Below are positions 1 through 33,676 of a DNA stretch of 40,847 nt, piece after piece. The notes under the pieces were generated by a model. It searched no databases. It saw only the letters and a list, made by a program, of their open reading frames with translations, and was not told the DNA's origin. Numbering within the stretch: position 1 is the first letter of the stretch; each line of letters begins with the position of its first letter. The DNA comes from a virus: UHGV virus genome UHGV-0390358; one strand, 5' to 3'. The translations under genes and the position numbers were made by a program.

Positions 1-1
1 G

Positions 2-166
2 CCTGGTGCGAATCTCTGGTACTTGAAGGCGGCTCTCGATCACATGATCTTTAACCAGATGCAGGAGTATTTTTCACCAGGCTATTTGCGTAAAATGGAG
101 CAACGTTCGAAGAAAGAGTTTAACCAGACATACTGGTGGCGACCACAGGATGTCACTCCGCAATAA
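2..166 (+). CDS. 3' end of a CDS truncated by the window start; function unknown
   Basis: Open frame from position 2 to TAA at 164-166 (...YLRKMEQRSKKEFNQTYWWRPQDVTPQ*); no start codon in window. Confidence 0.3.
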   Translation, partial: PGANLWYLKAALDHMIFNQMQEYFSPGYLRKMEQRSKKEFNQTYWWRPQDVTPQ

Positions 167-177
167 AAGGAGATATG

Positions 178-300
178 ATGGTTCAAATAACTTTTATTGT
201 ACTAATATGTGCAGCGTTTTTATGCTATTCATACATTTTGATAAAAATGGGTTTCAATTGGAATCTCTGTTGCGTGCAGCGGCATGGTTCGGCTTTGTAG
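178..300 (+). CDS. Small hydrophobic peptide (40 aa), unknown
   Basis: AGGAG at 168-172 then ATG at 178; MVQITFIVLICAAFLCYSYILIK... ; preferred over the overlapping 150..338 frame, which has no ribosome-binding site. Confidence 0.3.
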   Translation: MVQITFIVLICAAFLCYSYILIKMGFNWNLCCVQRHGSAL

Positions 301-385
301 TATTCGGAATTGTATTGTTCGGAAGAATAATAAAATAACTAGTTAATTTGTGGATTGGTGCTGTTTTTCCATGATAGGGGTAATT

Positions 386-766
386 ATGAGAAAAGTATTT
401 TTGATTTTTGGATTTATGCTTCTCGTTGGATGCCAGTCAGCTGCACAGTTTGAAAGAAATATGCTTACGTGGCGCGGGCAGAGTATAGACGCAATGGTTC
501 AGCAGTGGGGGTATCCTCAGGGAGAGCTTACATCTCCAGATGGAAACAGAGTGTATGTTTACTCAAGCTCTGGTAGTTATAACGTACCACAAACCACAAC
601 GTATAATACTACGTCTAATCTAATTGGTAATACTATATATTCAAACACATACGCAACAACTGATGGCGGTTATACACTCCATTTCAGTTGCTCTGTTTAC
701 GTTGAGTTTGGTGCTGATAAGATTATTAAAAATGTTACATGGCGCGGTAATAATTGCGTTGCGTGA
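386..766 (+). CDS. Phage-encoded lipoprotein (signal peptide + lipobox LLVGC), unknown function
   Basis: ATG at 386 preceded by AGGGG; N-terminus MRKVFLIFGFMLLVGCQS; AT-rich; followed by terminator. Confidence 0.6.
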   Translation: MRKVFLIFGFMLLVGCQSAAQFERNMLTWRGQSIDAMVQQWGYPQGELTSPDGNRVYVYSSSGSYNVPQTTTYNTTSNLIGNTIYSNTYATTDGGYTLHFSCSVYVEFGADKIIKNVTWRGNNCVA

Positions 767-774
767 CATGTCAC

Positions 775-800
775 AGGCCGCTTTCGCGGCCTTGTTTTTA
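775..800 (+). terminator. Rho-independent terminator after lipoprotein gene
   Basis: AGGCCGC-tttc-GCGGCCT stem-loop followed by TGTTTTTA. Confidence 0.5.
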
Positions 801-1012
801 ACGAATGCCACCGCCACCCGGGCGGGAATCCGCAGAACGCCCACCGCAGCGGGAGCCGTCAGCAGCAGTGTCGCTGTCGTGCTGACAACGACCGGCAAAG
901 GCCTGAGTTGAAGCTACCAGAGACAACAAAACGAACAGTGCAGCAAATGCTTATTTCCATCTATAAGCCACCTCAATGTGGCGTCAATGAGTGTAGCACT
1001 GACTTTTGTTTC

Positions 1013-1040
1013 GTCCATAAAAAAGCCCTCAGTGCGGGCT
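1013..1040 (-). terminator. Rho-independent terminator of the two-gene minus-strand operon
   Basis: On minus strand AAGCCC-gcactga-GGGCTT followed by TTTTTAT, immediately after the TAA stop at 1040-1042. Confidence 0.5.
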
Positions 1041-1417
1041 TAATTAACTTCGAGGATAATAGAATCTTTAGACTTGAATCCCACTTTCCTCATGGCTGTA
1101 ATGACGTTTTGGATAACCCACGTTTTCCCAAACTCTCTTTCGTGTACAATGGCGCAAGGAAAATGAAGGGCGCTTTTGTTGCACTTTATGGTGAAAGTTG
1201 TACCTTCAGCAAAATCCAAAACAGTCTGCAGATGTGCAGATATAAACGATTTAAACACATCTTCAAGCTCAGCAAGAGTAATTGGCGGTTTGTTCCTCTC
1301 GTCGTTCAGGCGTTCATATGCTGCGTGAAATGAAAAGTGAATTCTTGCCGCATCTTCTTGCAAGATCTCGTTAATCTCATCCTCAAGATCAATGAGTTGT
1401 TGTTCTGTTATAGACAT
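1040..1417 (-). CDS. Hypothetical protein, 125 aa, acidic N-terminus; second gene of a two-gene operon
   Basis: ATG at 1417 overlaps the upstream gene stop (ATGTCTATAA), indicating translational coupling; ends at terminator. Confidence 0.5.
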   Translation of the reverse strand: MSITEQQLIDLEDEINEILQEDAARIHFSFHAAYERLNDERNKPPITLAELEDVFKSFISAHLQTVLDFAEGTTFTIKCNKSALHFPCAIVHEREFGKTWVIQNVITAMRKVGFKSKDSIILEVN

Positions 1418-1626
1418 AGATAACGGGAGGTCGCCTCACTTATTTTTTGATTTAATTCATCATCATTGGATGCACGTACAGTAGCAACATGCTTACTTTG
1501 GCGTAGGGTCCCAATTCTGATATCAAATTCTTCATTATCGAAAGAGTCAACGAAAACAGCTTTACCAGTTTCTGGATGGTAAAAAGAGGCATAGTTTTGG
1601 TTGAGTTGCATATCAAATTTAAACAT
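1408..1626 (-). CDS. Hypothetical protein, 72 aa; first gene of a two-gene operon
   Basis: Strong ribosome-binding site GGGAGGA 5 nt before ATG at 1626; operator-like palindrome upstream at 1744-1758. Confidence 0.55.
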   Translation of the reverse strand: MFKFDMQLNQNYASFYHPETGKAVFVDSFDNEEFDIRIGTLRQSKHVATVRASNDDELNQKISEATSRYLCL

Positions 1627-1824
1627 ATCATCCTCCCATACGGGAACAGACGTGACTTACATACGGTGTGATTTTGACTAGTTAACTTTCTGCAGCAAAA
1701 CCATCACGGTAACTACAAACTAAAATGTTACAAATCAACTTTCTTACCTTTGGGGTAATAGTACGCTATTCACCTGCAATCTGTACAGAATTATTTAAAG
1801 GCACATCCCTGTGCCGCCGTTCTG

Positions 1825-2511
1825 TCAGAAGACCCCTGCCTTGTCGTTGATGTATTCCGCGTGGGTCTGGATATCACGCAGGCATTTACTCACACCGACG
1901 ATGTAGCAGAACATGGTGGTCAGTTCCGCCGCCGCGCCCGATACGTCGTGCCCGTCTTCCTGTAACTGGTTCAGCAGATTCATCAGCAGTGAGTTCTCCG
2001 TCAGGCCGAGAACACCAGACGGCGAGTGAATCAAACTGCGGTAGCCGGGCTTCAGCGGGGCGCTGTAGGTGTTGTTCTCTATCTTCATTGCCTGCATCAC
2101 TGCTGACGCCGTGGCGTTGGCTACCTGGTCGGCAACCATCTTTATGCGTTCTTCCTGCGGGAGCGAGTTTTTAATGTAACTTCCGGTGCGGCGGATCTGA
2201 GGAAGAACCTCACCCGTAACCCATTTACGAAAGCGGTAGGGGATAGTGCCTGGTGTCACCGCATCGCGGCAGCGGAGGATCAGTGTGTAGAGGCCTGACT
2301 CGTTGATAATATTGGTTTCGCCTTGACGGCCTAAGTTAAATTTAGCCCTTTCATCATCATCAAGAGATTTTATTGACATAGTGGGGTTTGTCAGTTGAAG
2401 AGCTTTAATAACGTCTTTGGCAACAAACCAAGGATTTCCATCAATAACAATGGCTCGAATGGTTGCCTCTGATTCAAAATGAAAAACAGATGGGGTTACG
2501 TTAGCAGTCAT
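1825..2511 (-). CDS. Bro-N domain + KilA-C (phage antirepressor-type) domain protein
   Basis: N-terminal FHFESEATIRAIVIDGNPWFVAKDVIKAL matches the Bro-N signature; C-terminal domain is paralogous to the 3657..3914 protein; start taken at internal ATG 2511 (MTANV...) rather than the ORF-track start 2664. Confidence 0.65.
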   Translation of the reverse strand: MTANVTPSVFHFESEATIRAIVIDGNPWFVAKDVIKALQLTNPTMSIKSLDDDERAKFNLGRQGETNIINESGLYTLILRCRDAVTPGTIPYRFRKWVTGEVLPQIRRTGSYIKNSLPQEERIKMVADQVANATASAVMQAMKIENNTYSAPLKPGYRSLIHSPSGVLGLTENSLLMNLLNQLQEDGHDVSGAAAELTTMFCYIVGVSKCLRDIQTHAEYINDKAGVF

Positions 2512-2905
2512 AGTGATCACCTTTGTAGTTAGGTTAATCACCACTACCGACGCCAATCGGTTGGTGGTGAACTGTGCAGGGTTGGCGTAACCGGCTACAA
2601 AGGACCCGGCGCACCTTTCGGTGCCCCCACACAGCCCACCATAGAATAGGTGCGCTTTACACATAAAAAAACCGCTTATGCGGCATATGTGCCTCTGTAG
2701 TAACCCGGGACGCCAATCCCGGCACTGGATTTTGCCAGTGCCCGATTACTATGGCACAAGAGGAGTGCGATGTAAATTTACCGCAAAGGTAATGATAAGC
2801 GCGAAGAAATATTAAAATCAACCGTATTTGGTTGATTGCGTTTAACGCTTGATCACCTGAAAGCAAGATATTACCTTTAAGGTAATGTTATTGTGAGGAA
2901 AAGCA

Positions 2906-3634
2906 ATGGAAGTTTTCTGGATAGTTGTTGGTGTGGTTGCGGTGATTATTTACGTTATCAACCAGAACAAGACTAAGATCTCTGATCGTACGGTCGTTAA
3001 TCAGAACAAAACGATAAAGACCGAAGATGGGGAGGTAACGATTAGTCGTACACAGGTGATAGAACACACATCTACTCAGTTTCAAAAAACTGGAGGTAAC
3101 GCGCCTGATATTTCCGTACCTCCTGCTTATGATAGTGCGGTAATCCAGACATATTATAAACAGCAGGAGTTTGCAAAAGAGAGGCAACTGATTCAGCCAA
3201 AGCCGTTTACAGCTGAGCTTCCACCTGGAGTGTCAACGCGTCCGGCATATCATGGAAGATTCCCTGGTGATGACATATCGTCTCAGTCATCTAAAAAAGC
3301 ACCTCAGGCAGTATCAGAGCCAGCAAGAATACCTTCTGTATCGCCGCCAAAAGAAGAATCAGCTAACAGAGTTTCAAGTGGCCGCAAGCAGTGTTTGCGA
3401 TGCAGAATAAACCTTCCATATGACAAATTCCGGAAATCGTCAAAAAATCCAGATGGATTGACTAAGTGGTGTGCAAGGTGTCTCGATGGCCCAAAGAATA
3501 CACGCCATATGAAGTGGTGCCCAATTTGTAATGTCCGCAGAAAACGGACCAGCTTTTACCCTAATAATCAAAATGCGGACGGCTTAATGGCATGGTGCAA
3601 AACGTGCTGGGACGAGCACAAAGCGAAACGATAG
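2906..3634 (+). CDS. Membrane-anchored protein with two C-terminal CxxC...CxxC zinc-ribbon-like repeats, unknown function
   Basis: ATG at 2906 with GAGGA ribosome-binding site; N-terminal TM helix; repeats CLRC..DGLTKWCARC and CPIC..DGLMAWCKTC; operator palindrome 2871-2885 immediately upstream. Confidence 0.6.
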   Translation: MEVFWIVVGVVAVIIYVINQNKTKISDRTVVNQNKTIKTEDGEVTISRTQVIEHTSTQFQKTGGNAPDISVPPAYDSAVIQTYYKQQEFAKERQLIQPKPFTAELPPGVSTRPAYHGRFPGDDISSQSSKKAPQAVSEPARIPSVSPPKEESANRVSSGRKQCLRCRINLPYDKFRKSSKNPDGLTKWCARCLDGPKNTRHMKWCPICNVRRKRTSFYPNNQNADGLMAWCKTCWDEHKAKR

Positions 3635-3656
3635 GCCGCTCTTGCGGCCTTTAAAT

Positions 3657-3914
3657 TTACCGGGTTTGTTTTCGTAATTGTTCGGCACAATAGTCGAGAT
3701 GTGTTTGCAGATCCTGCATAGACATCTGTGAGCTGGTGACGTAGTTAATCAGTGCAGTCAGTTCGGCAAGTGGGCCATCGACATTAAATCCATCCTTATC
3801 GAGATCTCGGAGTAATTTCATCAAGTGCGATCCCTCCACCAGTGACCTGACGCCTCCCGGCGTGTGAATCCTTTCGGTAAATCCGTTTTCCAGTGGATAG
3901 TGATACTGCTGCAT
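3657..3914 (-). CDS. Stand-alone KilA-C-like small protein; candidate SOS-inducible antirepressor
   Basis: Paralogous to the C-terminus of the 1825..2511 protein (HTPGGVRSLVEGSHLMKLLRDL... versus HSPSGVLGLTENSLLMNLLNQL...); GGAG ribosome-binding site favours the ATG at 3914 over 3929; LexA box 6 bp upstream. Confidence 0.6.
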   Translation of the reverse strand: MQQYHYPLENGFTERIHTPGGVRSLVEGSHLMKLLRDLDKDGFNVDGPLAELTALINYVTSSQMSMQDLQTHLDYCAEQLRKQTR

Positions 3915-3934
3915 CTTAATCTTCTCCATGCAAT

Positions 3935-3954
3935 AACTGTATATTTATACAGTA
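3935..3954. promoter_or_regulatory. LexA (SOS) box
   Basis: AACTGTATATTTATACAGTA, CTGT-N8-ACAG with AT-rich spacer, 15 of 16 core positions matching the E. coli consensus; overlaps a TATAAA -10-like hexamer of the leftward promoter. Confidence 0.7.
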
Positions 3955-4110
3955 GCAAATAATTTGTTTGCTATCCAGCACGTTTTGCAAATTACCTGAA
4001 AGGTAATATCTATTCGTATTTACAGCCTTTCTATCCATATGTGGTTTTTCAGGTAATAGAATAACCAGATATGCGGCGCAACGGGTGCTGCGACTATCTG
4101 GAGATTTAAC

Positions 4111-9354: not shown

Positions 9355-9616
9355 GGTGACGGTATATGAAACGGTACGGGAAAAGTTGAGGCTTGGAAAA
9401 GTGTTATCACTCAATTGGTTATGGTTGTCGTAAATAATCGAGTGGGAATGATTAACAGCTAACTCATAGCAACTCATTCCTATTCAGATACCAATTTAAC
9501 CCTCTGTTTTTACAGAGGGTTTTTGTTTTTATGTATTCATTTCTATTCACTCTACACCATATTTTTCGTCGGTACAGGTGACGGTATTACCTTAAAGGTA
9601 TACTCTCATACCGTCA
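9355..9616. repeat. Candidate attP arm region: GGTGACGGTAT repeats upstream of the integrase gene
   Basis: GGTGACGGTAT at 9355-9365 and 9577-9587 (direct), inverted copy ATACCGTCA at 9608-9616; core site not identified. Confidence 0.3.
9499..9530 (+). terminator. Rho-independent terminator downstream of lysis cassette
   Basis: ACCCTCTG-ttttta-CAGAGGGT followed by TTTTTGTTTTT. Confidence 0.6.
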
Positions 9617-13470: not shown

Positions 13471-14370
13471 TTACTTCATTCTGAAGACGCGTTGTGTCGT
13501 TGTTGTTTTGAATTTTTCGAATAACTCAGGGTGTACTGACTGGAATAGCTTCTGGTCGAATCTGTTGCTGATCTGAGATTTCCATGTGCAGAGCGGCTTT
13601 CCGTCCAGGGTCAGGACTGAGTGCTCTTGCATGTACATCTTCAGCTTCTCTTCTGATATAGCTATTTCTTCTTCCAGTGATTTTCTGCGTGACTTCATGT
13701 CTCGTAGATCGTTGAATAGTGCGAGTGCCTTTCCGTCAGCCTCGATACTTGTCCCGGCATCTTTCTCAAACATCAGCGATACATCGCTTACGCTGGTAGC
13801 TTCCGGCGGGTTAAGATTTTTCACTCGGTCCCAGAAAGCGATTTCTTTTTCTAAGATCGCCTGGATAGTTTCTTCATCACGCTCAACCCGATAGATTCGG
13901 AAGTCGTCGCCACCGATAAGCACACCGAAAACGCATACCTGTTTGTTTGTAACCATCAACCCGTGCATGGCCTGGGCCGTGTAATGCACAGGAATTGCAT
14001 CTGTCTGGATTTCTCCCCATTCTTTGGCTTTGAACGGACTAACTGTTTTGATCTCAATGTTCTCGCCTGACGCTGCTTCTGCATCGATCTCAGCTGCAAT
14101 AAAATCGTAATCACGGTGGATATAGCGGTTTCCGCGATGAACGATTTCCATCCCTGTTTCCTCAGAAAGCAGGTCTATTACGTATGGCTCCATACGCTGG
14201 CCACGCGTGAAAACTTTCTGCTTGCTTGGGTCTACTGGTTTGACACGTGGCTGGACCTTATCCAGATAAACCTCAAGCGGGGTGCGCCATGGGCTAATTC
14301 CAAGAATCCCTGCAACATCGCTTCCTCCGATGTATTTTGTTCTATCCATGATTCCAGCGTTCTGCATCAT
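13471..14370 (-). CDS. YqaJ-like recombination exonuclease (partner of RecT)
   Basis: N-terminal KYIGGSDVAGILG and IEIKT motifs; ATGA overlap with upstream gene stop. Confidence 0.7.
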   Translation of the reverse strand: MMQNAGIMDRTKYIGGSDVAGILGISPWRTPLEVYLDKVQPRVKPVDPSKQKVFTRGQRMEPYVIDLLSEETGMEIVHRGNRYIHRDYDFIAAEIDAEAASGENIEIKTVSPFKAKEWGEIQTDAIPVHYTAQAMHGLMVTNKQVCVFGVLIGGDDFRIYRVERDEETIQAILEKEIAFWDRVKNLNPPEATSVSDVSLMFEKDAGTSIEADGKALALFNDLRDMKSRRKSLEEEIAISEEKLKMYMQEHSVLTLDGKPLCTWKSQISNRFDQKLFQSVHPELFEKFKTTTTQRVFRMK

Positions 14371-14666
14371 GCCGCTTCCCTCTGCCCATCAATCCGATCC
14401 GCCAGATCCCAGCGGGCGATAATTGCCATTGCCTCGCGCCGGTAGGAATCCATCAGTTCTTCGAACTCAGGGCTGTCTTTAGCAGCCTCCAGCACTTCCT
14501 GACGAACGCCTTTGCCTGTTACAACGTCGAAAGTTGAGGACAGTTGATGAAGTCGGATGCTCTCAATCAGTTCAACTTGTCGGTCATATAGCTGTTCTGA
14601 CAGGCGGTAGTCCTTGTCGAATGCCAGCATGATTTTTTGAAGATTTTTCTGCTGATTAACGTTCAT
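14367..14666 (-). CDS. Hypothetical early protein (99 aa)
   Basis: ATG at 14666 with GGAGG ribosome-binding site; in leftward early operon; unassigned. Confidence 0.45.
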   Translation of the reverse strand: MNVNQQKNLQKIMLAFDKDYRLSEQLYDRQVELIESIRLHQLSSTFDVVTGKGVRQEVLEAAKDSPEFEELMDSYRREAMAIIARWDLADRIDGQREAA

Positions 14667-14668
14667 TA

Positions 14669-14821
14669 TCAGCCCTCCCATATCTCGTTATCGTTGGCTA
14701 CATCGCGAGCTTCTTTGCTGACGAAAGCCCACTTAATGCCTTCCTGTAAGGTGCGGAACTTCCAGCTCATGAATCCGCATGCAGTAACGCAGTACCAACC
14801 GTTGATGATTTTCCACTGCAT
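14669..14821 (-). CDS. Small Cys-containing protein (50 aa), first ORF of leftward early operon
   Basis: ATG at 14821 with GAGG ribosome-binding site; below the ORF-track size cut-off; MQWKIINGWYCVTACGF... Confidence 0.3.
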   Translation of the reverse strand: MQWKIINGWYCVTACGFMSWKFRTLQEGIKWAFVSKEARDVANDNEIWEG

Positions 14822-14840
14822 AACTTGTTACCTCGGTCTG

Positions 14841-14917
14841 TTACCGTTAAGGTAATAATTATGCTTATTTGGTTTGGTGTCAATAGATATGAGTTAAAAA
14901 AATTACCCGTAAGGTAA
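14841..14917. promoter_or_regulatory. Leftward early promoter region with two TTACC-N5-GGTAA operator palindromes
   Basis: TTACCgttaaGGTAA at 14841-14855 and TTACCcgtaaGGTAA at 14903-14917, between repressor terminator and first leftward gene. Confidence 0.55.
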
Positions 14918-14928
14918 TCTATCTGGCA

Positions 14929-14952
14929 ATAAAAAAGCCGCCATGAGGCGGC
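14929..14952 (-). terminator. Rho-independent terminator after repressor gene
   Basis: Minus strand GCCGCC-tcat-GGCGGC followed by TTTTTTATT. Confidence 0.5.
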
Positions 14953-14974
14953 TTACTTACTGAAAACTATAGTT

Positions 14975-15559
14975 TTATTGTTTGCTTTTTTCGTTCTGGT
15001 TGATGACAAATTCAATGTAACTTTCGATCTTTGCTTTCTCGGTTTCGGGTAACAATGCGTAGCGTGAGCGGTCATAGTTGATAGTCGCAGGGTCGTGCGG
15101 GTGAATCAGTAGTTCATATCCGTGACGCCCGAATGCGGATGCAACATTCTCCAGGGTGGAAATGGAAACGCTGACCTCATTGTTTAACAGGCGGCTGATT
15201 GTCACCTGGGCGACGCCGGATGCGCGGTGAAGTTTTCCCTGTGTTGAAAGGTCGCGGCTTTCGCTCATCCAGCGTTCCAGGTTGTGAGCCGCCAGCTGAC
15301 CTATATCGCTCGGGCCGACAGGCTGAAAACCCTCCTGAGAAAGCGAACGATCAATATCAAGCCAGTTACGGGGTTTATTGGCGGCAGCTTCAATTTTTCG
15401 TGCAACCTGGTCGCCGATAACCTTCTTGCCAAGAGCCCAGCGGTTTACCAGATTTGCCTGAGTTCCAAGTTTTTCTGCCATCCGCGTCTGAACACCATTG
15501 AATTCACGGTCGATCAAGTCGTTGAGATTTTGCCTGCGGACGTCCTGGATACTTTTCAT
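14975..15559 (-). CDS. Prophage repressor with two tandem XRE-type HTH domains and no peptidase S24 autocleavage domain
   Basis: 194 aa; HTH-like segments QTRMAEKLGTQANLVNRWALGK and VAQVTISRLLNNEVSVSISTLENVASAFG; divergent from Cro-like gene across an operator-containing region. Confidence 0.7.
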   Translation of the reverse strand: MKSIQDVRRQNLNDLIDREFNGVQTRMAEKLGTQANLVNRWALGKKVIGDQVARKIEAAANKPRNWLDIDRSLSQEGFQPVGPSDIGQLAAHNLERWMSESRDLSTQGKLHRASGVAQVTISRLLNNEVSVSISTLENVASAFGRHGYELLIHPHDPATINYDRSRYALLPETEKAKIESYIEFVINQNEKSKQ

Positions 15560-15614
15560 TTTCTGGAAAATCGCCTCATATATGAATCAGTAGATGATTC
15601 AATTTAAAGCAATA

Positions 15615-15677
15615 TTACCCAACAGGTAAATGCACCTCATAGGTAACTATCCTTGATTTTTGTTACCTTATGGGTGA
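15615..15677. promoter_or_regulatory. Divergent immunity-region operators (three TTACC-N5-GGTAA-type sites)
   Basis: TTACCcaacaGGTAA 15615-15629; gCACCtcataGGTAA 15632-15646; TTACCttatgGGTgA 15663-15677 overlapping a TTGTTA-N17-TATTAT promoter candidate for the Cro-like gene. Confidence 0.6.
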
Positions 15678-15713
15678 ATATTTATTATCTGAAATAAATA
15701 TCAGGCAATAGCT

Positions 15714-15944
15714 ATGAGCGATAACGGACATTTCGATTTCAAAAAGCACTGGCTTGCACTTACTCCGGATGAGCGTGAAGCCTTCGCACAGGAAGCCGGA
15801 ACGACGAGTCACTATATCCAGACTCACTTAACAGGCAAGCGCAAAATGCCAGGTAAAGTATTGATGAATGGGCTTTTTAAAGCCTGTAAAACAAGACAAT
15901 GGCTGCGCTCAAAAGCAGAACTGGCATACTTCTTCTACTCATGA
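15714..15944 (+). CDS. Cro-like small HTH regulator
   Basis: 76 aa, divergent from repressor; HTH-like EREAFAQEAGTTSHYIQTHLTGKRKM. Confidence 0.5.
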   Translation: MSDNGHFDFKKHWLALTPDEREAFAQEAGTTSHYIQTHLTGKRKMPGKVLMNGLFKACKTRQWLRSKAELAYFFYS

Positions 15945-15965
15945 TATCCAGCTACAACCCTCTGT

Positions 15966-15990
15966 AGACCGCCACCCGGCGGTCTTTTCA
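15966..15990 (+). terminator. Rho-independent terminator after Cro-like gene
   Basis: GACCGCC-accc-GGCGGTC followed by TTTTCA. Confidence 0.55.
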
Positions 15991-16092
15991 TATCTATTCG
16001 TACCTCAAAGGTAATAAAAAACCAAATCTGGTTGATCAAATTTTCCAATTGTGCAAAATAGCCAATATCAATAACAAAAAGGGGCGGAAAAA

Positions 16093-16305
16093 TTGAAGAT
16101 AGTAACCAGAATGGAGGCCGCAAAAGCCGGGTTAAATCGCTATTTCACAGGAAAGCAGTGCCGTCACGGCCATCTCTCTGAAAGGTATGTTCTGAACGGA
16201 ACATGTGTTGAATGTGCAATGAATAGCGCCAACCGCCATCGTAATGAATTTGCTTGTGCACTAAAGAGTGCAAGAGGGGAAACCTATGGCAAGCAGCTGG
16301 ATTAA
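16093..16305 (+). CDS. Small zinc-finger protein (CxHxH...CxxC), possible regulator
   Basis: TTG start with AGGGG ribosome-binding site; motif GKQCRHGHLSERYVLNGTCVEC; start uncertain (alternative ATG at 16111). Confidence 0.35.
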   Translation: MKIVTRMEAAKAGLNRYFTGKQCRHGHLSERYVLNGTCVECAMNSANRHRNEFACALKSARGETYGKQLD

Positions 16306-17122
16306 GGTTGAAGTTATCACTCCTGATAAACCTGAAATTTTTCAGATAGCAGAAATTCTGGGTATTGATCCAGATGCTGTTCTTGGAAAGCTGGTTCGTA
16401 TATGGGCATGGGCTGACCAGCAAACAATAGACGGTAACGCTGGCAGCGTTACAAAAGGAGTACTTGATAGACTCGCTTTTATTACAGGATTTGCTGACGC
16501 CCTCATTAGCGTCGGATGGCTTGCTTATCATGACGGCAAACTAATTCTTCCAAACTTTGAGCGACACAATGGAGAATCATCGAAAAAACGTGCACTTACG
16601 AATAGAAGAGTGGCAGAGCATCGAAAACGAGTAACGCAAAAAGTAACGCCAACAGCGTTACAAAAGGAGTTACCAGAGGAAGAGGAAGAGGAAGAGGAAG
16701 ATATATATAAAACCCCACACATAGCGCACGTGCGCGAGGGTGCTCCGACCAGTGAAGCGAACAGTACGCCGTTGCAGGTGGCAGAACCTGAATTTCTGGA
16801 TGGCCTGAGTGAACCCATCGGGAAATTTCCGATGACAGATGGCTGGCTACCGTCGCCAGATTTTCGGCGGCGTGCTGCGCTGTGGGGAACGGCCCTGCCG
16901 GAACCTGAATTTACACCTGCTGAACTTGCTGCATTCCGGGATTACTGGATGGCTGAGGGCAAAGTGTTCACGCAGGTTCAGTGGGAACAAAAATTCGCCA
17001 GGCACGTAAATCATATCAGGGGAAAATCAAAAAATGCCGGGAAAAGCGATGAGCTTGACTGGAATAACACTGACTGGATAGAAGGGGTGTGGGATGAAAT
17101 CAACTCCAGAACTTCTCAATGA
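16286..17122 (+). CDS. Replication initiation / replisome organiser protein (lambda O-like role, DnaT-like C-terminal domain)
   Basis: Position immediately upstream of the P-like gene; poly-Glu linker; internal repeated DNA motifs (candidate origin); C-terminal ...AELAAFRDYWMAEGKVFTQVQWEQKFARHV. Confidence 0.55.
   Translation: MASSWIKVEVITPDKPEIFQIAEILGIDPDAVLGKLVRIWAWADQQTIDGNAGSVTKGVLDRLAFITGFADALISVGWLAYHDGKLILPNFERHNGESSKKRALTNRRVAEHRKRVTQKVTPTALQKELPEEEEEEEEDIYKTPHIAHVREGAPTSEANSTPLQVAEPEFLDGLSEPIGKFPMTDGWLPSPDFRRRAALWGTALPEPEFTPAELAAFRDYWMAEGKVFTQVQWEQKFARHVNHIRGKSKNAGKSDELDWNNTDWIEGVWDEINSRTSQ
16430..16712. repeat. Iteron-like repeats, (GAGGAA)4 and AT-rich tract inside the O-like gene: candidate replication origin
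   Basis: AGCGTTACAAAAGGAGT exact at 16445-16461 and 16654-16670 in different reading frames; GTAACGC at 16434, 16631, 16643; (GAGGAA)4 at 16676-16699 followed by ATATATATAAAA. Confidence 0.35.
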
Positions 17123-17870: not shown

Positions 17871-17987
17871 TACCAGCGCGATAGCGCATTTTTTTACGCC
17901 TCAATAATTACCTATAAGGTAACAAAATATTCTAAGCTCTATTGATTTCGTGTCTTATGTGGTTTTTAATTACCTTAGAGGTAAATC

Positions 17988-21349: not shown

Positions 21350-21392
21350 GCATGGTACTATTACCACAACGGTAACTATTACCACGGTGGTT

Positions 21393-21989
21393 ATGATGCC
21401 TGCTGAACCTAAAACCTATAAACGCAAATCAACGCAATTTAAGCCACTAACAGCAATGCAGGAGGCTTATTGCCAGTCATACATCAAAACGCCTGAAAAC
21501 CAGACTCAGGCAGCGATTAATGCAGGATTCTCCCCAAATACAGCGGCAGTTAAAGCCAGTGTCATGATGCGCGATGAACGCATTCAAAAACGGATTGCCG
21601 AGTTGATGGAGGAGCGCAACAAACGAATGCGCGTCAGTGCTGATTACGTTCTCATGCGCCTGGTGGAGATCGACCAGATGGACGTGATCGACATCCTCAA
21701 CGACGATGGGAGCCTTAAACCAATCCGTGAGTGGCCGAAAATCTGGCGCACTACGCTTAGTGGCTTTGATCTGTCATCGATCATCATGAACATGAACGAG
21801 GATTCGATAGAGACAATCCTCAAAAAAATTAAATGGCCTGACAAGGTGAAGAACCTTGAGCTGATTGGTAAGCATGTTGATGTCAACGCGTTCAAAGAAC
21901 GTCTGGATGTTAATGTGAATGTGACAATTGCTGATCGCATAGCAGCAGCCAGGAAGCGACTCAAAGAACGTCAGGATGGTAATCAGTGA
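21393..21989 (+). CDS. Terminase small subunit
   Basis: HTH-like ...QAAINAGFSPNTAAVKASVMMRDERIQKRIAEL; immediately upstream of and overlapping TerL; start taken at internal ATG 21393. Confidence 0.6.
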   Translation: MMPAEPKTYKRKSTQFKPLTAMQEAYCQSYIKTPENQTQAAINAGFSPNTAAVKASVMMRDERIQKRIAELMEERNKRMRVSADYVLMRLVEIDQMDVIDILNDDGSLKPIREWPKIWRTTLSGFDLSSIIMNMNEDSIETILKKIKWPDKVKNLELIGKHVDVNAFKERLDVNVNVTIADRIAAARKRLKERQDGNQ

Positions 21990-23458: not shown

Positions 23459-24283
23459 TTACTTTTGTGTTTTTGATTTTCTTTGATAGGTGGAATTTAA
23501 ATCACCATTTATATTTACTAGAGGATTATTCAATAATGTACTGATTTCTGGATTGTTAATTCCAGTAACGCCAAGTTTCTTTACGGACTCATTAAAGTCT
23601 TGTAATGATTTTAGACCTACAAGCCCATTAGCAATTGTATTATTTGTTGCCAAAGGAATGTTTTTCTTATAGGACTCATATTCGTTTTTTAAATTTTTGT
23701 GAGTTTTTTCTAGATTTTCTAGTTTAGATGTTGTTTCATCAATAACCTTAGATAATTCTAAAATACGAGCTTGTGCTGCGCGCAGTTCTGTCTCCCTCTC
23801 TTTCAATTCAGATGTGAGTTGTCCCATTCTGTCTTTTGAAAGAATTATTTCCTCTTTCATGTCTTGAATGTTTTTTTCAGCGCCTGTTTTTACTTTTTCG
23901 TAAGTAATGTCTTTTTTAGCCAGCAATCTCTGTAGCCGTGTTTCACGTTGTATTTTTCTTGCCTTCCGGTGGTTTTCGATTGAGTCATTATTATCAAGAG
24001 GTTTTGCTTGCCATACGTTAATGATATTGTTTACCCATGGTAATAGGCAGCAGATAGTAATTACAGATAAGCATGGATAAAACATAACAGTTTTCCATGT
24101 GCTGTTATCTGAGATGTATGAAATTTTATCTATTATATTTGATTTGCTAAAAAACAGATAAAGAAGTGATTTCCAGTTGAAGGCGCACCAGGACATAACA
24201 AAAGCACCAAGCACAGGGTTTTTAGCTCGATGCACGGCAGTATTGGCAGTAGATAAAAACAGCTCTTTGAACGATTCGAACAT
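23459..24283 (-). CDS. AT-rich accessory protein: N-terminal membrane segments + long coiled-coil; unknown function
   Basis: Opposite strand to flanking late genes; AT-rich composition unlike neighbours; consensus TATAAT -10 at 24309-24314 overlapping an operator palindrome; in-frame alternative starts at 24307 and 24337. Confidence 0.5.
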   Translation of the reverse strand: MFESFKELFLSTANTAVHRAKNPVLGAFVMSWCAFNWKSLLYLFFSKSNIIDKISYISDNSTWKTVMFYPCLSVITICCLLPWVNNIINVWQAKPLDNNDSIENHRKARKIQRETRLQRLLAKKDITYEKVKTGAEKNIQDMKEEIILSKDRMGQLTSELKERETELRAAQARILELSKVIDETTSKLENLEKTHKNLKNEYESYKKNIPLATNNTIANGLVGLKSLQDFNESVKKLGVTGINNPEISTLLNNPLVNINGDLNSTYQRKSKTQK

Positions 24284-24342
24284 ACTAATTACCTTAAAGT
24301 TTTTCATGATTATACCTTTAAGGTAATTTGTGGTCATCAGGC

Positions 24343-24367
24343 AAAAAAAATGCCCGGCGAACCGGGC
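24343..24367 (-). terminator. Rho-independent terminator downstream of the tRNA
   Basis: Minus strand GCCCGG-ttcg-CCGGGC followed by a run of 8 T. Confidence 0.45.
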
Positions 24368-24530
24368 GAACTGGAAGCAATGAGTTATGCCTTCCGTGGC
24401 TGTACGGGTTTACAGCATGAAGTCATCGCAATGGCGTCCTGCTGTAAAAAGGGCGGTGATAGGCCTTCAAGGGAAACCATCACCGCCAAGCCCCTGGAAC
24501 TTCTGGCATCACGGTCCTCAGGCGTGATTC

Positions 24531-24607
24531 TGGCGTGGCATGCAGGATTCGAACCTGCGACCAACCGCTTAGAAGGCGGTTGCTCTGTCCAACTGAGCTA
24601 ATGCCAC
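24531..24607 (-). tRNA. tRNA-Arg (anticodon UCU)
   Basis: Reverse complement folds as a 77-nt cloverleaf: 7-bp acceptor stem GTGGCAT/ATGCCAC, D-arm GCTC..GAGC, anticodon loop CTTCTAA, T-arm GCAGG-TTCGAAT-CCTGC, 3' CCA; differs from E. coli argU in the acceptor stem. Confidence 0.9.
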
Positions 24608-25034
24608 AACGCTGAGAGCACTTAGCCTGTTAAGGCGCCACACTTTGTCTCGGCTCCATAAATGCTCTCATCGTTGTACCCTCGTCTCTTCCGAGGCGTC
24701 ACACCGAATCGCCGGGATGGTGAATCCCCGTGCGCGGAATAAAACCGCTCGACTTGCACATTCCGGCTACCTGGTTCGTTTGCCCGAGCAAGGGAGGGTG
24801 CCCCTTAAACGTATCCAGACCGCTATCGGCGCATGTGCCATACGCCGTACTGCTCAAAATAAAAGCTCACTCCACCTGTTCAATTTAACGACAAGCCAGT
24901 CAGGTTAGTAACCGGAATGAACTCTTTGGTTACCTGAAAGGTAATAATTTGTGCGTTAAATGTCAACTATCTACGATAAATAAATCATATGTGGTTAAAT
25001 TGGTAATAATTTAATTGCGTACGGAGTCATTGAT

Positions 25035-33212: not shown

Positions 33213-33676
33213 TGATCGATGTTCAAATTATTCCCGCAACCGAAGAGCATCTTCAGATGATTTTGCCGGATGTTCGTCAGGCTGATATTGACGAACTGTA
33301 TGCGGTATCACTGATGACTACCGAAGATGCGCTGCGTGTTGGTCTGCGTACTGCGACTATGGCCTGGTCAGGATTTGCGAACGGAGAACTGGTAACCATG
33401 TTTGGCGTATCTCCGGCGTCAATGATCGGTGGCAATGGTACGCCCTGGCTGGTCGGAACCAGCCGTATCGAAAAATATCAGAAGACATTTCTTCGCCACT
33501 GCCGCCCTGTATTGCAGCAGATGCTGGCAGTTTATCCGCGCCTGGAAAACTATGTCGATGAGCGAAACCATGTTGCCAAAGCATGGCTGCACTGGCTTGG
33601 ATTCAGGCTTGAAGAAGCCGCGCCTTATGGTGCTCTTGGTCTTAATTTCCACAGATTTCACATGGAGAGAAAATAA
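33212..33676 (+). CDS. Internal virion protein (gp13-like position)
   Basis: 154 aa, start overlaps previous stop. Confidence 0.4.
   Translation: MIDVQIIPATEEHLQMILPDVRQADIDELYAVSLMTTEDALRVGLRTATMAWSGFANGELVTMFGVSPASMIGGNGTPWLVGTSRIEKYQKTFLRHCRPVLQQMLAVYPRLENYVDERNHVAKAWLHWLGFRLEEAAPYGALGLNFHRFHMERK

What the first reader, a model, noticed from the sequence alone, without database searches (positions are those of the whole stretch)
14841..15990. Immunity switch built on a tandem-HTH repressor without an autocleavage domain
The 194-aa repressor carries two XRE-type HTH segments in one chain and no LexA/S24-like C-terminal domain, so RecA-mediated self-cleavage is unlikely. It is divergent from a Cro-like gene across three operator copies, has its own terminator, and is followed by a separate two-operator promoter for the leftward recombination operon. 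A two-HTH monomer could read both half-sites of the palindrome itself.
Basis: partly seen in the sequence, partly recalled or inferred. Interest (0 to 1): 0.65.

Follow-up and report, generated by a model that had tools for sequence, protein, structure and literature searches.

The report
Known SPC32H-type phage repressor/antirepressor switch
The region is the immunity switch of an epsilon15/phiV10-like E. coli phage; its non-cleavable repressor with two helix-turn-helix folds belongs to a family already solved and tested in Salmonella phage SPC32H, where a small antirepressor controlled by the host LexA protein switches it off, so the finding is real but ordinary.

Summary
ORF 14975..15559(-) encodes a 194-aa repressor with two HTH folds and no S24 peptidase. 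It sits opposite a Cro-like gene across three TTACC-N5-GGTAA operators, has its own terminator, and lies next to a leftward promoter with two operators.

It is not new. The window is a Uetakevirus. The protein is 99.5% identical to phiV10 p40, whose GenBank note already says "two helix-turn-helix motifs", and to ZX5 ORF21, shown by overexpression to block lytic growth. It matches the solved Salmonella phage SPC32H Rep over its full length (PDB 5D50/5D4Z, E=3.5e-42).

Published work on that family assigns DNA binding to the N-terminal HTH only. The second HTH fold is a dimerisation domain, followed by a tetramerisation/antirepressor-binding tail, so the "one monomer reads both half-sites" idea is not supported.

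Gene 3657..3914(-) is 88% identical to SPC32H Ant and sits behind a near-consensus LexA box (3935..3954).

Other points:
- Rep operators occur at about ten promoter regions across the genome, as already annotated in epsilon15.
- A second, P1-immI-like antirepressor cassette (isrK, C4 RNA, Bro-N/Ant fusion; 1825..2821) is also present.

Verdict: already known; low interest.

The parts
14975..15559 (-). rep: 194-aa repressor. Layout: N-terminal HTH DNA-binding domain (~1-60), linker (~61-82), HTH_3-fold middle domain (~83-155), C-terminal tail (~156-194).
   Evidence: ORF. Pfam results. PDB 5d50_A E=3.5e-42 over residues 1-190. AF2 model. Foldseek top hits are 5d50/5d4z. 99.5% identical to phiV10 p40 and ZX5 ORF21.
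14935..14954 (-). Intrinsic terminator downstream of rep.
   Evidence: phiV10 annotates the same terminator.
14855..14883 (-). Leftward (PL-like) promoter TTGACA-17-AATTAT for the gp37/gp36/exonuclease/RecT operon.
   Evidence: 10 of 12 matches.
14841..14855 (.). Operator OL1 (TTACCGTTAAGGTAA), abutting the -10 element and covering the start site of PL.
   Evidence: The 62-bp spacing to OL2 is conserved in five phages.
14903..14917 (.). Operator OL2 (TTACCCGTAAGGTAA), upstream of the -35 element of PL.
15615..15629 (.). Operator OR3 (perfect), nearest to rep.
15632..15646 (.). Operator OR2 (GCACCTCATAGGTAA, 2 mismatches). It is a perfect site in epsilon15 and BUCT711.
15663..15677 (.). Operator OR1 (TTACCTTATGGGTGA, 1 mismatch), overlapping the -35 element and spacer of the rightward promoter.
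15660..15688 (+). Rightward (PR-like) promoter TTGTTA-17-TATTAT.
   Evidence: The -35 region is invariant in five phages.
15714..15944 (+). Cro-like first gene of the rightward operon (76 aa).
   Evidence: PHROG 35 'transcriptional repressor' E=5.6e-13. Assigned by position. No structural confirmation.
15966..15985 (+). Terminator after the cro-like gene.
16000..16014 (.). Operator (1 mismatch) just after that terminator, ahead of the replication genes.
   Evidence: Equivalent sites occur in ZX5 and Tyrion.
3657..3914 (-). ant: small SPC32H-type antirepressor (85 aa from ATG 3914; the ORF is open from 3929).
   Evidence: PDB 5d50_E 'Anti-repressor protein' E=8e-47. 88% identical to SPC32H ant by tblastn.
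3935..3954 (.). LexA box (TACTGTATAAATATACAGTT on the ant strand), 20 bp upstream of ant.
   Evidence: Exact CTGT-N8-ACAG at 3937-3952. Conserved upstream of ant in SPC32H, epsilon15, Tyrion and ZX5, and with 1 mismatch in BUCT711.
3992..4006 (.). Rep operator between ant and the tailspike gene.
   Evidence: Annotated as a repressor-binding site in epsilon15.
1825..2511 (-). ant2: Bro-N domain plus a C-terminal domain 40% identical to the small Ant.
   Evidence: 81% identical to ZX5 ORF4 'anti-repressor'.
2560..2646 (-). C4 antisense RNA in the ant2 leader. Its loop CCUUUGUAG is complementary to CUACAAAGG (2520-2528), which overlaps the ant2 Shine-Dalgarno sequence.
   Evidence: Rfam RF01695, 79.5 bits. 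Complementarity shown.
2665..2741 (-). isrK-family sRNA element in the ant2 leader.
   Evidence: Rfam RF01394, 74.7 bits.
2778..2792 (.). Rep operator abutting the -10 element of the candidate ant2-leader promoter (TTGATT-18-TATCAT, 2821->2792).
2871..2885 (.). Rep operator 21 bp upstream of ORF 2906..3634(+).
17908..17984 (.). Pair of Rep operators (17908-17922 and 17970-17984), 62 bp apart, ahead of the DUF1064 gene. The second overlaps that gene's ribosome-binding site.
21361..21393 (.). Pair of Rep operators, 18 bp apart, ahead of the small terminase gene.
   Evidence: Annotated in epsilon15.
24930..24944 (.). Rep operator ahead of the gp3-like/portal structural operon.
   Evidence: The epsilon15 equivalent is annotated.
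9587..9601 (.). Operator-like site (1 mismatch) 57 bp upstream of int.
   Evidence: Equivalent 1-mismatch sites lie about 57 bp upstream of int in epsilon15 (26882), ZX5 and Tyrion.
1744..1758 (.). Rep operator between ant2 and the 72-aa ORF 1408..1626(-).
24312..24326 (.). Operator-like site (1 mismatch) at the start of ORF 23459..24337(-).

Best explanation
This is the immunity region of an epsilon15/phiV10-like temperate podovirus (genus Uetakevirus), and it works like the published Rep/Ant/LexA switch of Salmonella phage SPC32H.

**Repression.** Rep (14975..15559) binds the palindrome (A)TTACC-N5-GGTAA(T) through pairs of its N-terminal HTH domain. The second HTH_3-like fold is a dimerisation domain, and the C-terminal tail makes tetramers. 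One tetramer therefore carries two DNA-reading pairs and can occupy two operators at once. I infer that this explains the conserved operator pairs 17-18 bp and 62 bp apart that bracket promoters. In the lysogen Rep shuts PR, PL and about eight further promoter regions across the genome, including those ahead of the terminase, structural, tailspike and ant2 genes.

**Induction.** Rep cannot cleave itself. DNA damage instead inactivates host LexA. That frees the ant promoter at ~3935-3990, and the 85-aa Ant binds the C-terminal part of Rep and pulls it off DNA.

**Second antirepressor (inferred role).** A Bro-N/Ant-domain fusion sits behind isrK and C4 RNAs and a Rep operator. It is expected to come on once Rep is removed.

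**What is shown and what is inferred.** Shown here: homology of Rep and Ant to the solved proteins, the LexA box, the operator set and its conservation, and the absence of an S24 domain. Taken from the literature on homologues: tetramer binding, the domain roles, Ant action and LexA control. Inferred: operator pairing by tetramers and the feed-forward role of ant2.
For: - **Rep homology.** Rep matches PDB 5d50_A (SPC32H Rep) at E=3.5e-42 over residues 1-190, and 5d4z (Rep 92-198) at E=3.6e-20. The AF2 model's best Foldseek hits are the same entries.
- **Ant homology.** ORF 3657..3929(-) matches 5d50_E 'Anti-repressor protein' at E=8e-47. SPC32H annotates the homologue as ant, at the same place next to the tailspike gene.
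- **LexA box.** An exact CTGT-N8-ACAG sits 20 bp upstream of ant. It is conserved in SPC32H, epsilon15, Tyrion, ZX5 and BUCT711.
- **No autocleavage domain.** No S24 domain in Rep or anywhere else in the window.
- **Function of near-identical proteins.** ZX5 ORF21 is 99.5% identical, and its overexpression abolishes free phage and cuts lysin/holin transcripts by >99.9% (PMC9782041). phiV10 p40 is annotated as a repressor with two HTH motifs.
- **Operators.** 11 exact sites against 0.04 expected. The same consensus is annotated as 'protein_bind: repressor' at equivalent places in epsilon15. It is conserved in five genomes with conserved 62-bp and 17-18-bp spacings.
- **Which domain reads DNA.** The N-terminal recognition helix is conserved while the second HTH is not.
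- **Literature.** Rep binds DNA as a tetramer, the DNA-binding pairs come from different dimers, and an Ant tetramer binds two Rep dimers (PMC9638917). The domain order is DNA-binding, dimerisation, then tetramerisation/Ant-binding (PMC9986798). Ant is made after LexA self-cleavage (PMC7380047, PMC9437464, citing Kim & Ryu 2013).
Against: - Rep here is only 41-43% identical to SPC32H/epsilon15 Rep, so oligomeric state and Ant binding are extrapolated.
- The primary SPC32H papers were not held in the library. The mechanistic details come from later papers that cite them and from my recollection of the abstracts.
- The C-terminal tail of the AF2 monomer model is partly low-confidence (residues 157-166).
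- The middle HTH_3 domain keeps invariant residues at positions that contact DNA in classical XRE proteins (Q107, Q118, R123). A residual DNA contact is therefore not excluded.
- The promoter for rep itself could not be assigned with confidence.
- The ZX5 authors attributed antirepression to the Bro-N protein and did not test the small Ant.
Confidence: 0.9

Rival explanations
1. One reading: a single Rep chain places its two HTH domains on the two arms of one palindrome and so acts as a monomeric 'pseudo-dimer'.
For: Two HTH folds sit in one chain, joined by a ~20-residue flexible linker. The middle domain scores above the Pfam HTH_3 threshold and keeps Q107, Q118 and R123 invariant in 26 homologues.
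Against: The operator arms are identical and dyad-symmetric, whereas the two domains show no detectable similarity to each other. Phages that share the TTACC half-site keep the N-terminal recognition helix but not the second one. In the solved homologue the second domain is a dimerisation domain and the protein binds DNA as a tetramer (PMC9986798, PMC9638917).
Confidence: 0.04
2. Rep works as in SPC32H, but in this phiV10-like phage the main physiological inducer is the larger Bro-N/Ant-domain protein (ant2, 1825..2511) under C4 RNA control, not the small LexA-controlled Ant.
For: The C-terminal domain of Ant2 is 40% identical to the small Ant. The 81%-identical ZX5 ORF4, whose C-terminal ~150 residues are nearly identical, lowered lysogeny about 1000-fold when overexpressed (PMC9782041). 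Ant-like domains occur in the same phage genera that carry Rep.
Against: ant2 has no LexA box. It sits behind a Rep operator and a C4 RNA that pairs with its ribosome-binding site, so it is doubly silenced in a lysogen and needs a prior trigger. SPC32H and epsilon15 lack this cassette yet carry the same switch. The small ant with its LexA box is conserved in every genome examined.
Confidence: 0.05
3. Rep is inactivated by some non-canonical proteolysis (RecA-dependent or by a host protease), with the antirepressors playing only an accessory part.
For: None from this window. ZX5 lysogens release phage spontaneously at a high rate (PMC9782041).
Against: There is no S24 fold and no Ala-Gly or Cys-Gly site. 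Reviews of the SPC32H work describe induction through LexA self-cleavage followed by antirepressor synthesis rather than repressor cleavage (PMC7380047). From my recollection of the Kim & Ryu 2013 abstract, Rep itself is not cleaved in the SOS response.
Confidence: 0.01

Closest known systems
Salmonella phage SPC32H Rep-Ant-LexA antirepression switch (Kim & Ryu 2013, J Virol 87:11775; Kim et al. 2016, PNAS; PDB 5D4Z and 5D50)
   Same: Rep aligns over its full length with the same three-part layout. Ant is 88% identical and sits at the same position beside the tailspike gene. The LexA box lies ahead of ant with a Rep operator next to it. Neither Rep has an S24 domain. Both phages are in the genus Uetakevirus.
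   Different: Rep is only ~41-43% identical (NTD 54%, middle domain 33%, tail 51%). This phage also carries the isrK-C4-ant2 cassette, which was not seen in the stretch of SPC32H read here (between the last structural gene and ant).
phiV10 p40, vB_EcoP_ZX5 ORF21 and TL-2011b repressors
   Same: 99-100% identical protein with the same flanking DNA (97-98% nucleotide identity). The phiV10 GenBank note already records two HTH motifs. ZX5 ORF21 was tested by overexpression.
   Different: Essentially nothing in the switch itself. The moron region 1-3650 differs between these phages.
epsilon15 gp38 repressor and its annotated binding sites (Kropinski et al. 2007; RefSeq NC_004775.2)
   Same: Same operator consensus ATTACC-N5-GGTAAT. 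The sites are spread over the same promoter regions: terminase, gp3, ant/tail fibre, PL and the post-replication promoter.
   Different: Rep is 43% identical. epsilon15 has three PL sites against two here. The record does not annotate the three sites between gp38 and gp39, although they are present.
Phage P1/P7 immunity (C1 repressor with many dispersed operators; immI = c4 RNA-icd-ant)
   Same: The logic is shared: a non-cleavable repressor, operators scattered over the genome, and an antirepressor held in check by a C4 antisense RNA cut from its own leader.
   Different: C1 is unrelated in sequence and its operators are asymmetric 17-mers. P1 has no LexA-controlled small Ant. Here the C4-ant cassette is an accessory module shared with Stx phages.
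Coliphage 186 CI/Tum and the Gifsy prophage antirepressors
   Same: An SOS signal is relayed through a LexA-repressed antirepressor to a repressor that is not cleaved.
   Different: The repressor and antirepressor folds are unrelated.
Lambda CI, P22 C2 and LexA (HTH plus S24 autopeptidase)
   Same: Divergent repressor/cro layout with three operators, and an N-terminal HTH that reads a palindrome.
   Different: There is no S24 domain and no cleavage site. Oligomerisation uses an HTH_3-like domain plus a p53-like tail.

Membership tests
SPC32H-type Rep/Ant/LexA antirepression switch | Repressor homologous to SPC32H Rep over its whole length | tested here: met
   5d50_A E=3.5e-42, residues 1-190 of 194. 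Foldseek top hits are 5d50/5d4z.
SPC32H-type Rep/Ant/LexA antirepression switch | Layout: N-terminal DNA-binding HTH, middle dimerisation domain, C-terminal tetramerisation/Ant-binding tail | tested here: met
   The gap-poor alignment spans all three parts. The AF2 model has helices 4-59, 83-151 and 172-193. Domain roles are taken from PMC9986798. The tail is partly low-confidence in the monomer model.
SPC32H-type Rep/Ant/LexA antirepression switch | Small Ant protein homologous to SPC32H Ant | tested here: met
   5d50_E E=8e-47. 88% identity to KC911856 ant.
SPC32H-type Rep/Ant/LexA antirepression switch | LexA-binding site at the ant promoter | tested here: met
   TACTGTATAAATATACAGTT at 3935-3954, 20 bp before ant. 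It aligns with the box in SPC32H.
SPC32H-type Rep/Ant/LexA antirepression switch | Rep is not cleaved in the SOS response; Ant binds Rep and releases it from DNA; Rep binds DNA as a tetramer | not testable with these tools
   These are biochemical properties, known only for the SPC32H homologue (PMC9638917, PMC7380047).
LexA/lambda CI-type autocleaving repressors (Peptidase S24) | C-terminal S24 serine-lysine autopeptidase domain and an Ala-Gly (or Cys-Gly) cleavage site | tested here: not met
   No S24 hit at E<=1.
XRE / Cro-C1 HTH_3 family (PF01381) | Match to HTH_3 above the Pfam gathering score | tested here: met
   38.5 bits against a cut-off of 23, residues 106-147. The N-terminal HTH is only sub-threshold in Pfam (YdaS-like, 20.9 against 30 bits) but matches PHROG repressor families at E~1e-10 to 1e-11.
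P1/P7 immI-type C4 RNA-antirepressor cassette (second module, 1825-2821) | C4 antisense RNA upstream of an ant gene, with loop complementarity to the ribosome-binding region of the downstream gene | tested here: met
   RF01695, 79.5 bits against a gathering score of 45. A 9-nt and a 7-nt complementarity lie in the leader, the first overlapping the ant2 Shine-Dalgarno sequence. A Bro-N Ant gene lies downstream.

The most novel reading that the evidence does not exclude
The phiV10-type switch may be a two-stage latch not described for SPC32H.

- **Stage 1.** The LexA-controlled small Ant strips Rep from DNA.
- **Stage 2.** That de-represses a second, Rep-operated and C4-RNA-gated antirepressor (Bro-N fused to an Ant-like domain), which makes induction irreversible.

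All Uetakeviruses examined keep the same operator sequence even though Rep is only 43% identical. The repressor specificity may therefore be frozen by having ~15 dispersed operators, as in P1/P7. Differences in immunity would then lie in the antirepressor/C4 layer rather than in Rep.

A weaker variant, also not excluded, is that the middle HTH_3 domain still touches DNA.
Probability: 0.25. Interest if true: 0.4.

Novelty: already known. Interest (0 to 1): 0.12.

Why it matters
As posed, it matters little. The repressor family, its lack of autocleavage, its partner antirepressor, its LexA control and its crystal structures were published in 2013-2016. The near-identical E. coli phage proteins are annotated, and one has been tested.

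The useful outcomes are corrections:
- The second HTH fold should not be read as a second DNA-reading head.
- The SOS input lies 11 kb from the immunity region, in a gene that most phiV10-like records, including ZX5, still call hypothetical.
- phiV10-like phages carry a second antirepressor under C4-RNA control, and the ZX5 study took it to be the only one.

Tried and rejected
- **Primary papers not held.** Kim & Ryu 2013, Kim et al. 2016 and Kropinski et al. 2007 could not be fetched. I relied on later papers that summarise them and on GenBank/PDB records.
- **Internal duplication.** BLASTP of the N-terminal against the middle domain gave no alignment, so a recent tandem duplication is rejected.
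- **S24 search.** Pfam at E<=1 and tblastn of E. coli LexA and lambda CI against the window found nothing.
- **Cro-like gene.** Pfam, PDB and NCBIfam gave nothing. Only PHROG 35 supports a regulator role. I ran no further search on it.
- **Promoters at every operator.** A simple -35/-10 scan gave clear calls for PL, PR and the ant2 leader. The rest, including the promoter of rep itself, gave only weak or ambiguous matches, so no PRM is claimed.
- **Other LexA-like sites.** Exact CTGT-N8-ACAG matches at 24400 and 28942 are G+C-rich in the spacer and lie inside ORFs. The overall count is no higher than chance, so they are treated as chance.
- **NCBIfam on Rep, Ant and Ant2.** Nothing above the cut-offs.
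Full report
**What the window is.** Positions 14000-17000 are 97-98% identical at the nucleotide level to Escherichia phages HEMP4, vB_EcoP_ZX5, TL-2011b and Phi05_1387 B. Over about half that stretch (368-2038 of the 3001-base query, which includes the switch) they are also ~97% identical to phiV10. Similarity to Enterobacter phage Tyrion is ~78%. All are epsilon15-like podoviruses of the genus Uetakevirus. The gene order matches: RecT/exonuclease operon, repressor, cro-like gene, DnaT/P-like replication genes, terminase, structural genes, tailspike, lysis genes and integrase.

**Checking the observation.**
- ORF 14975..15559(-) encodes 194 aa.
- Pfam finds HTH_3 at residues 106-147 (E=1.2e-9, above threshold) and a Cro/YdaS-like HTH at 21-61 (E=3e-4, below threshold). 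There is no Peptidase_S24 hit even at E<=1.
- The protein has no Ala-Gly or Cys-Gly dipeptide, and nothing in the six-frame translation of the window resembles the LexA or lambda CI catalytic domains.
- An AlphaFold2 model built on 26 homologues (mean pLDDT 76) shows two separate helical bundles, helices 4-59 and 83-151. They are joined by a low-confidence linker and followed by a long C-terminal helix at 172-193.
- The divergent 76-aa gene 15714..15944(+) matches PHROG 35 'transcriptional repressor' (E=5.6e-13), but nothing in Pfam, PDB or NCBIfam. 'Cro-like' therefore rests on position and that one profile.
- Three copies of TTACC-N5-GGTAA lie between the two genes: 15615 (perfect), 15632 (2 mismatches) and 15663 (1 mismatch).
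- A terminator follows rep at 14935-14954.
- A strong leftward promoter (TTGACA-17-AATTAT, 14883->14855) has one operator abutting its -10 element (14841-14855) and one upstream of its -35 element (14903-14917).
- The motif is not a chance pattern: 11 exact copies in the window against 0.04 expected.

One detail needs correcting. The arms are 10 bp apart centre to centre, one helical turn, not 15 bp.

**What it is.** The protein is 99.5% identical to phiV10 p40, whose GenBank note already reads 'two helix-turn-helix motifs (PF01381); similar to putative repressor epsilon15p38'. It is also 99.5% identical to ZX5 ORF21. Overexpressing ORF21 reduced free phage to zero and cut endolysin and holin transcripts by >99.9% (PMC9782041).

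Against solved structures, the protein aligns over residues 1-190 with chain A of 5D50, 'Repressor' of Salmonella phage SPC32H (E=3.5e-42), and with 5D4Z, Rep 92-198. Foldseek on the model returns the same entries first.

Later papers summarise the SPC32H work as follows.
- Rep has an N-terminal DNA-binding domain, a middle dimerisation domain and a C-terminal domain that tetramerises and binds the antirepressor Ant (PMC9986798).
- Rep binds DNA as a tetramer, dimers bind poorly, and the two N-terminal domains that read one palindrome come from different dimers (PMC9638917).
- A tetrameric Ant binds two Rep dimers and breaks the tetramer (PMC9638917).

The middle dimerisation domain is the stretch that Pfam calls HTH_3.

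ORF 3657..3929(-) lies eleven kilobases away, next to the tailspike gene. Its likely start is ATG 3914, giving 85 aa. It matches chain E of 5D50, 'Anti-repressor protein', at E=8e-47, and is 88% identical to the gene annotated ant in SPC32H.

Twenty base pairs upstream is TACTGTATAAATATACAGTT, a near-consensus LexA box (exact CTGT-N8-ACAG; sequence). A Rep operator lies 40 bp further on (3992-4006). An alignment of this intergenic region from the window, SPC32H, epsilon15, Tyrion and BUCT711 shows the operator and the LexA box conserved in all five. ZX5, checked by pattern scan, has the identical box.

Reviews state that in these Salmonella phages an antirepressor is made after LexA self-cleavage and inhibits the repressor by protein-protein contact (PMC7380047; PMC9437464; both citing Kim & Ryu 2013). 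Ant homologues occur in 35 phage records and Rep homologues in 37, from the same genera.

**Why the one-chain, two-half-site idea fails.**
- The symmetrised matrix of 17 sites shows both arms equally and identically conserved: A-TTACC-T...A-GGTAA-T. That is the signature of two identical heads related by a dyad.
- The two HTH domains of Rep have no detectable similarity to each other.
- Five genomes whose repressors are 43-99% identical to this one all use the same half-site at equivalent positions. Against SPC32H Rep, the N-terminal domain is 54% identical with the recognition helix NLVNRW intact. The middle domain is 33% identical and its helices 2-3 only 26%.
- The structural literature agrees (see above).

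One caveat remains. The middle domain keeps Q107, Q118 and R123 invariant across 26 homologues. Those positions often contact DNA in XRE proteins, so some residual DNA contact cannot be ruled out from sequence alone.

**Operators beyond the immunity region.** Sites with 0-1 mismatch occur at 1744, 2778, 2871, 3992, 9587, 14841, 14903, 15615, 15663, 16000, 17908, 17970, 21361, 21379, 24312 and 24930. Nearly all are intergenic and lie ahead of transcription units: ant2, ant/tailspike, int, PL, PR, the replication genes, the DUF1064 gene, terminase and the structural genes.

The epsilon15 RefSeq record already annotates equivalent sites as 'protein_bind: repressor'. Two spacings recur in all five genomes:
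- 62 bp at PL and at the promoter after the replication genes;
- 17-18 bp at the rep-proximal operator pair (OR3/OR2) and ahead of terminase.

Because a Rep tetramer carries two DNA-reading pairs, I infer that these pairs are bridged by one tetramer. This is an inference and was not tested.

**A second antirepressor cassette.** ORF 1825..2664(-) probably starts at ATG 2511, behind the Shine-Dalgarno sequence AAGGTGA. It has a Bro-N domain and a C-terminal 80 residues 40% identical to the small Ant (PHROG 450).
- Its leader contains an isrK-family element (2665-2741) and a C4 antisense RNA (2560-2646), both well above the Rfam gathering scores.
- The C4 loop CCUUUGUAG is complementary to CUACAAAGG, which overlaps the ant2 Shine-Dalgarno sequence. 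A second 7-nt match lies just upstream. This is the arrangement known from the immI region of phage P1 (my knowledge).
- The candidate promoter TTGATT-18-TATCAT abuts operator 2778-2792.
- The protein is 81% identical to ZX5 ORF4 and nearly identical over the C-terminal ~150 residues. The ZX5 authors called ORF4 'the' anti-repressor, and it lowered lysogeny on overexpression.
- Parts of the cassette are shared with more than 160 phage records, mostly Stx phages. It was not seen in the stretch of SPC32H read here, between the last structural gene and ant, and no Bro-N antirepressor is annotated in epsilon15.

**Mechanism, with status of each step.**
1. Rep tetramers bind paired palindromes through N-terminal HTH pairs and silence PR, PL and the dispersed promoters. 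Operators and their conservation are shown here. Binding mode comes from the homologue's literature. Pairing by tetramers is inferred.
2. DNA damage leads to LexA cleavage, then ant transcription. The LexA box is shown here. Control is known for the homologue.
3. Ant binds the Rep C-terminal region and releases it from DNA. This is known for the homologue. Here Ant is 88% identical and the Rep tail 51% identical.
4. Loss of Rep opens the ant2 promoter, and Ant2 reinforces the switch once it escapes C4 control. This is inferred.

**Verdict.** It is wrong on how the palindrome is read, and it omits the real trigger. The system is a member of a published, structurally solved family, and near-identical genes are already annotated and tested. 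Novelty: already known. Interest: low.

Noticed in passing
window 2560-2741 (-), with ant2 at 1825-2511 (-): isrK (RF01394) and C4 antisense RNA (RF01695) lie in the leader of a Bro-N antirepressor gene. The C4 loop is complementary to that gene's ribosome-binding site. This is a P1-immI-like cassette, shared in part with more than 160 phage records, mostly Stx phages.
   Followed up: partly
window 1825-2511 (-), residues ~143-224 of the 228-aa protein: The C-terminal domain of the Bro-N protein is 40% identical to the small SPC32H-type Ant, so the phage encodes two proteins with the Rep-binding antirepressor fold. In phage records the Ant-like domain was found only in the genera that also carry Rep.
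   Followed up: partly
L003 (ZX5, MW722083.1) 2089-2346 (-) and 2366-2385: The ZX5 record and paper call the Bro-N protein the anti-repressor. The 98.8%-identical SPC32H-type Ant is left as 'hypothetical protein', with an unnoticed LexA box just upstream. phiV10, TL-2011b and epsilon15 records also call it hypothetical.
   Followed up: yes
window, L002, L003, L004, L005 (operator maps): Five Uetakeviruses whose repressors are 43-99% identical to this one (the two most distant from it, epsilon15 and BUCT711, were not compared with each other) all use the same operator TTACC-N5-GGTAA, at 13-16 equivalent sites with conserved 62-bp and 17-18-bp pair spacings. This suggests shared repressor specificity across the genus and possible cross-immunity.
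   Followed up: partly
L002 (epsilon15 NC_004775.2) 33341-33402: The three operators between gp38 and gp39 of epsilon15 are present but are not among the 'protein_bind: repressor' features annotated in the RefSeq record.
   Followed up: yes
window 17970-17984: This Rep operator (TTACCTTAGAGGTAA) ends 3 bp before the ATG of the DUF1064 gene (17988), so its GAGGTAA arm doubles as the ribosome-binding site.
   Followed up: no
window 24531-24607 (-): A tRNA-Arg (anticodon TCT) overlaps ORF 24350..24601(+). The equivalent ORF is annotated as a hypothetical protein in ZX5 and is therefore probably not a real gene.
   Followed up: partly
window 9587-9601: An operator-like site with the same single mismatch as in epsilon15 (final A to T; TTACCTTAAAGGTAT here, TTACCCTAAAGGTAT there) lies 57 bp upstream of int in both phages. 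ZX5 and Tyrion also have a 1-mismatch site about 57 bp upstream of int. Rep may therefore also affect integrase expression.
   Followed up: no
window 2906-3634 (+): A 242-aa ORF (PHROG 6762) has C-terminal zinc-ribbon/HNH/Lar-like matches. It is wedged between the two antirepressor genes, with a perfect Rep operator 21 bp before its start. Its function is unknown.
   Followed up: no
window 3657-3914 versus 14975-15559: Mosaic conservation relative to SPC32H: Ant is 88% identical while its target Rep is only ~41-43% identical (C-terminal Ant-binding tail 51%). Antirepressors of this genus may therefore act across repressor types.
   Followed up: no
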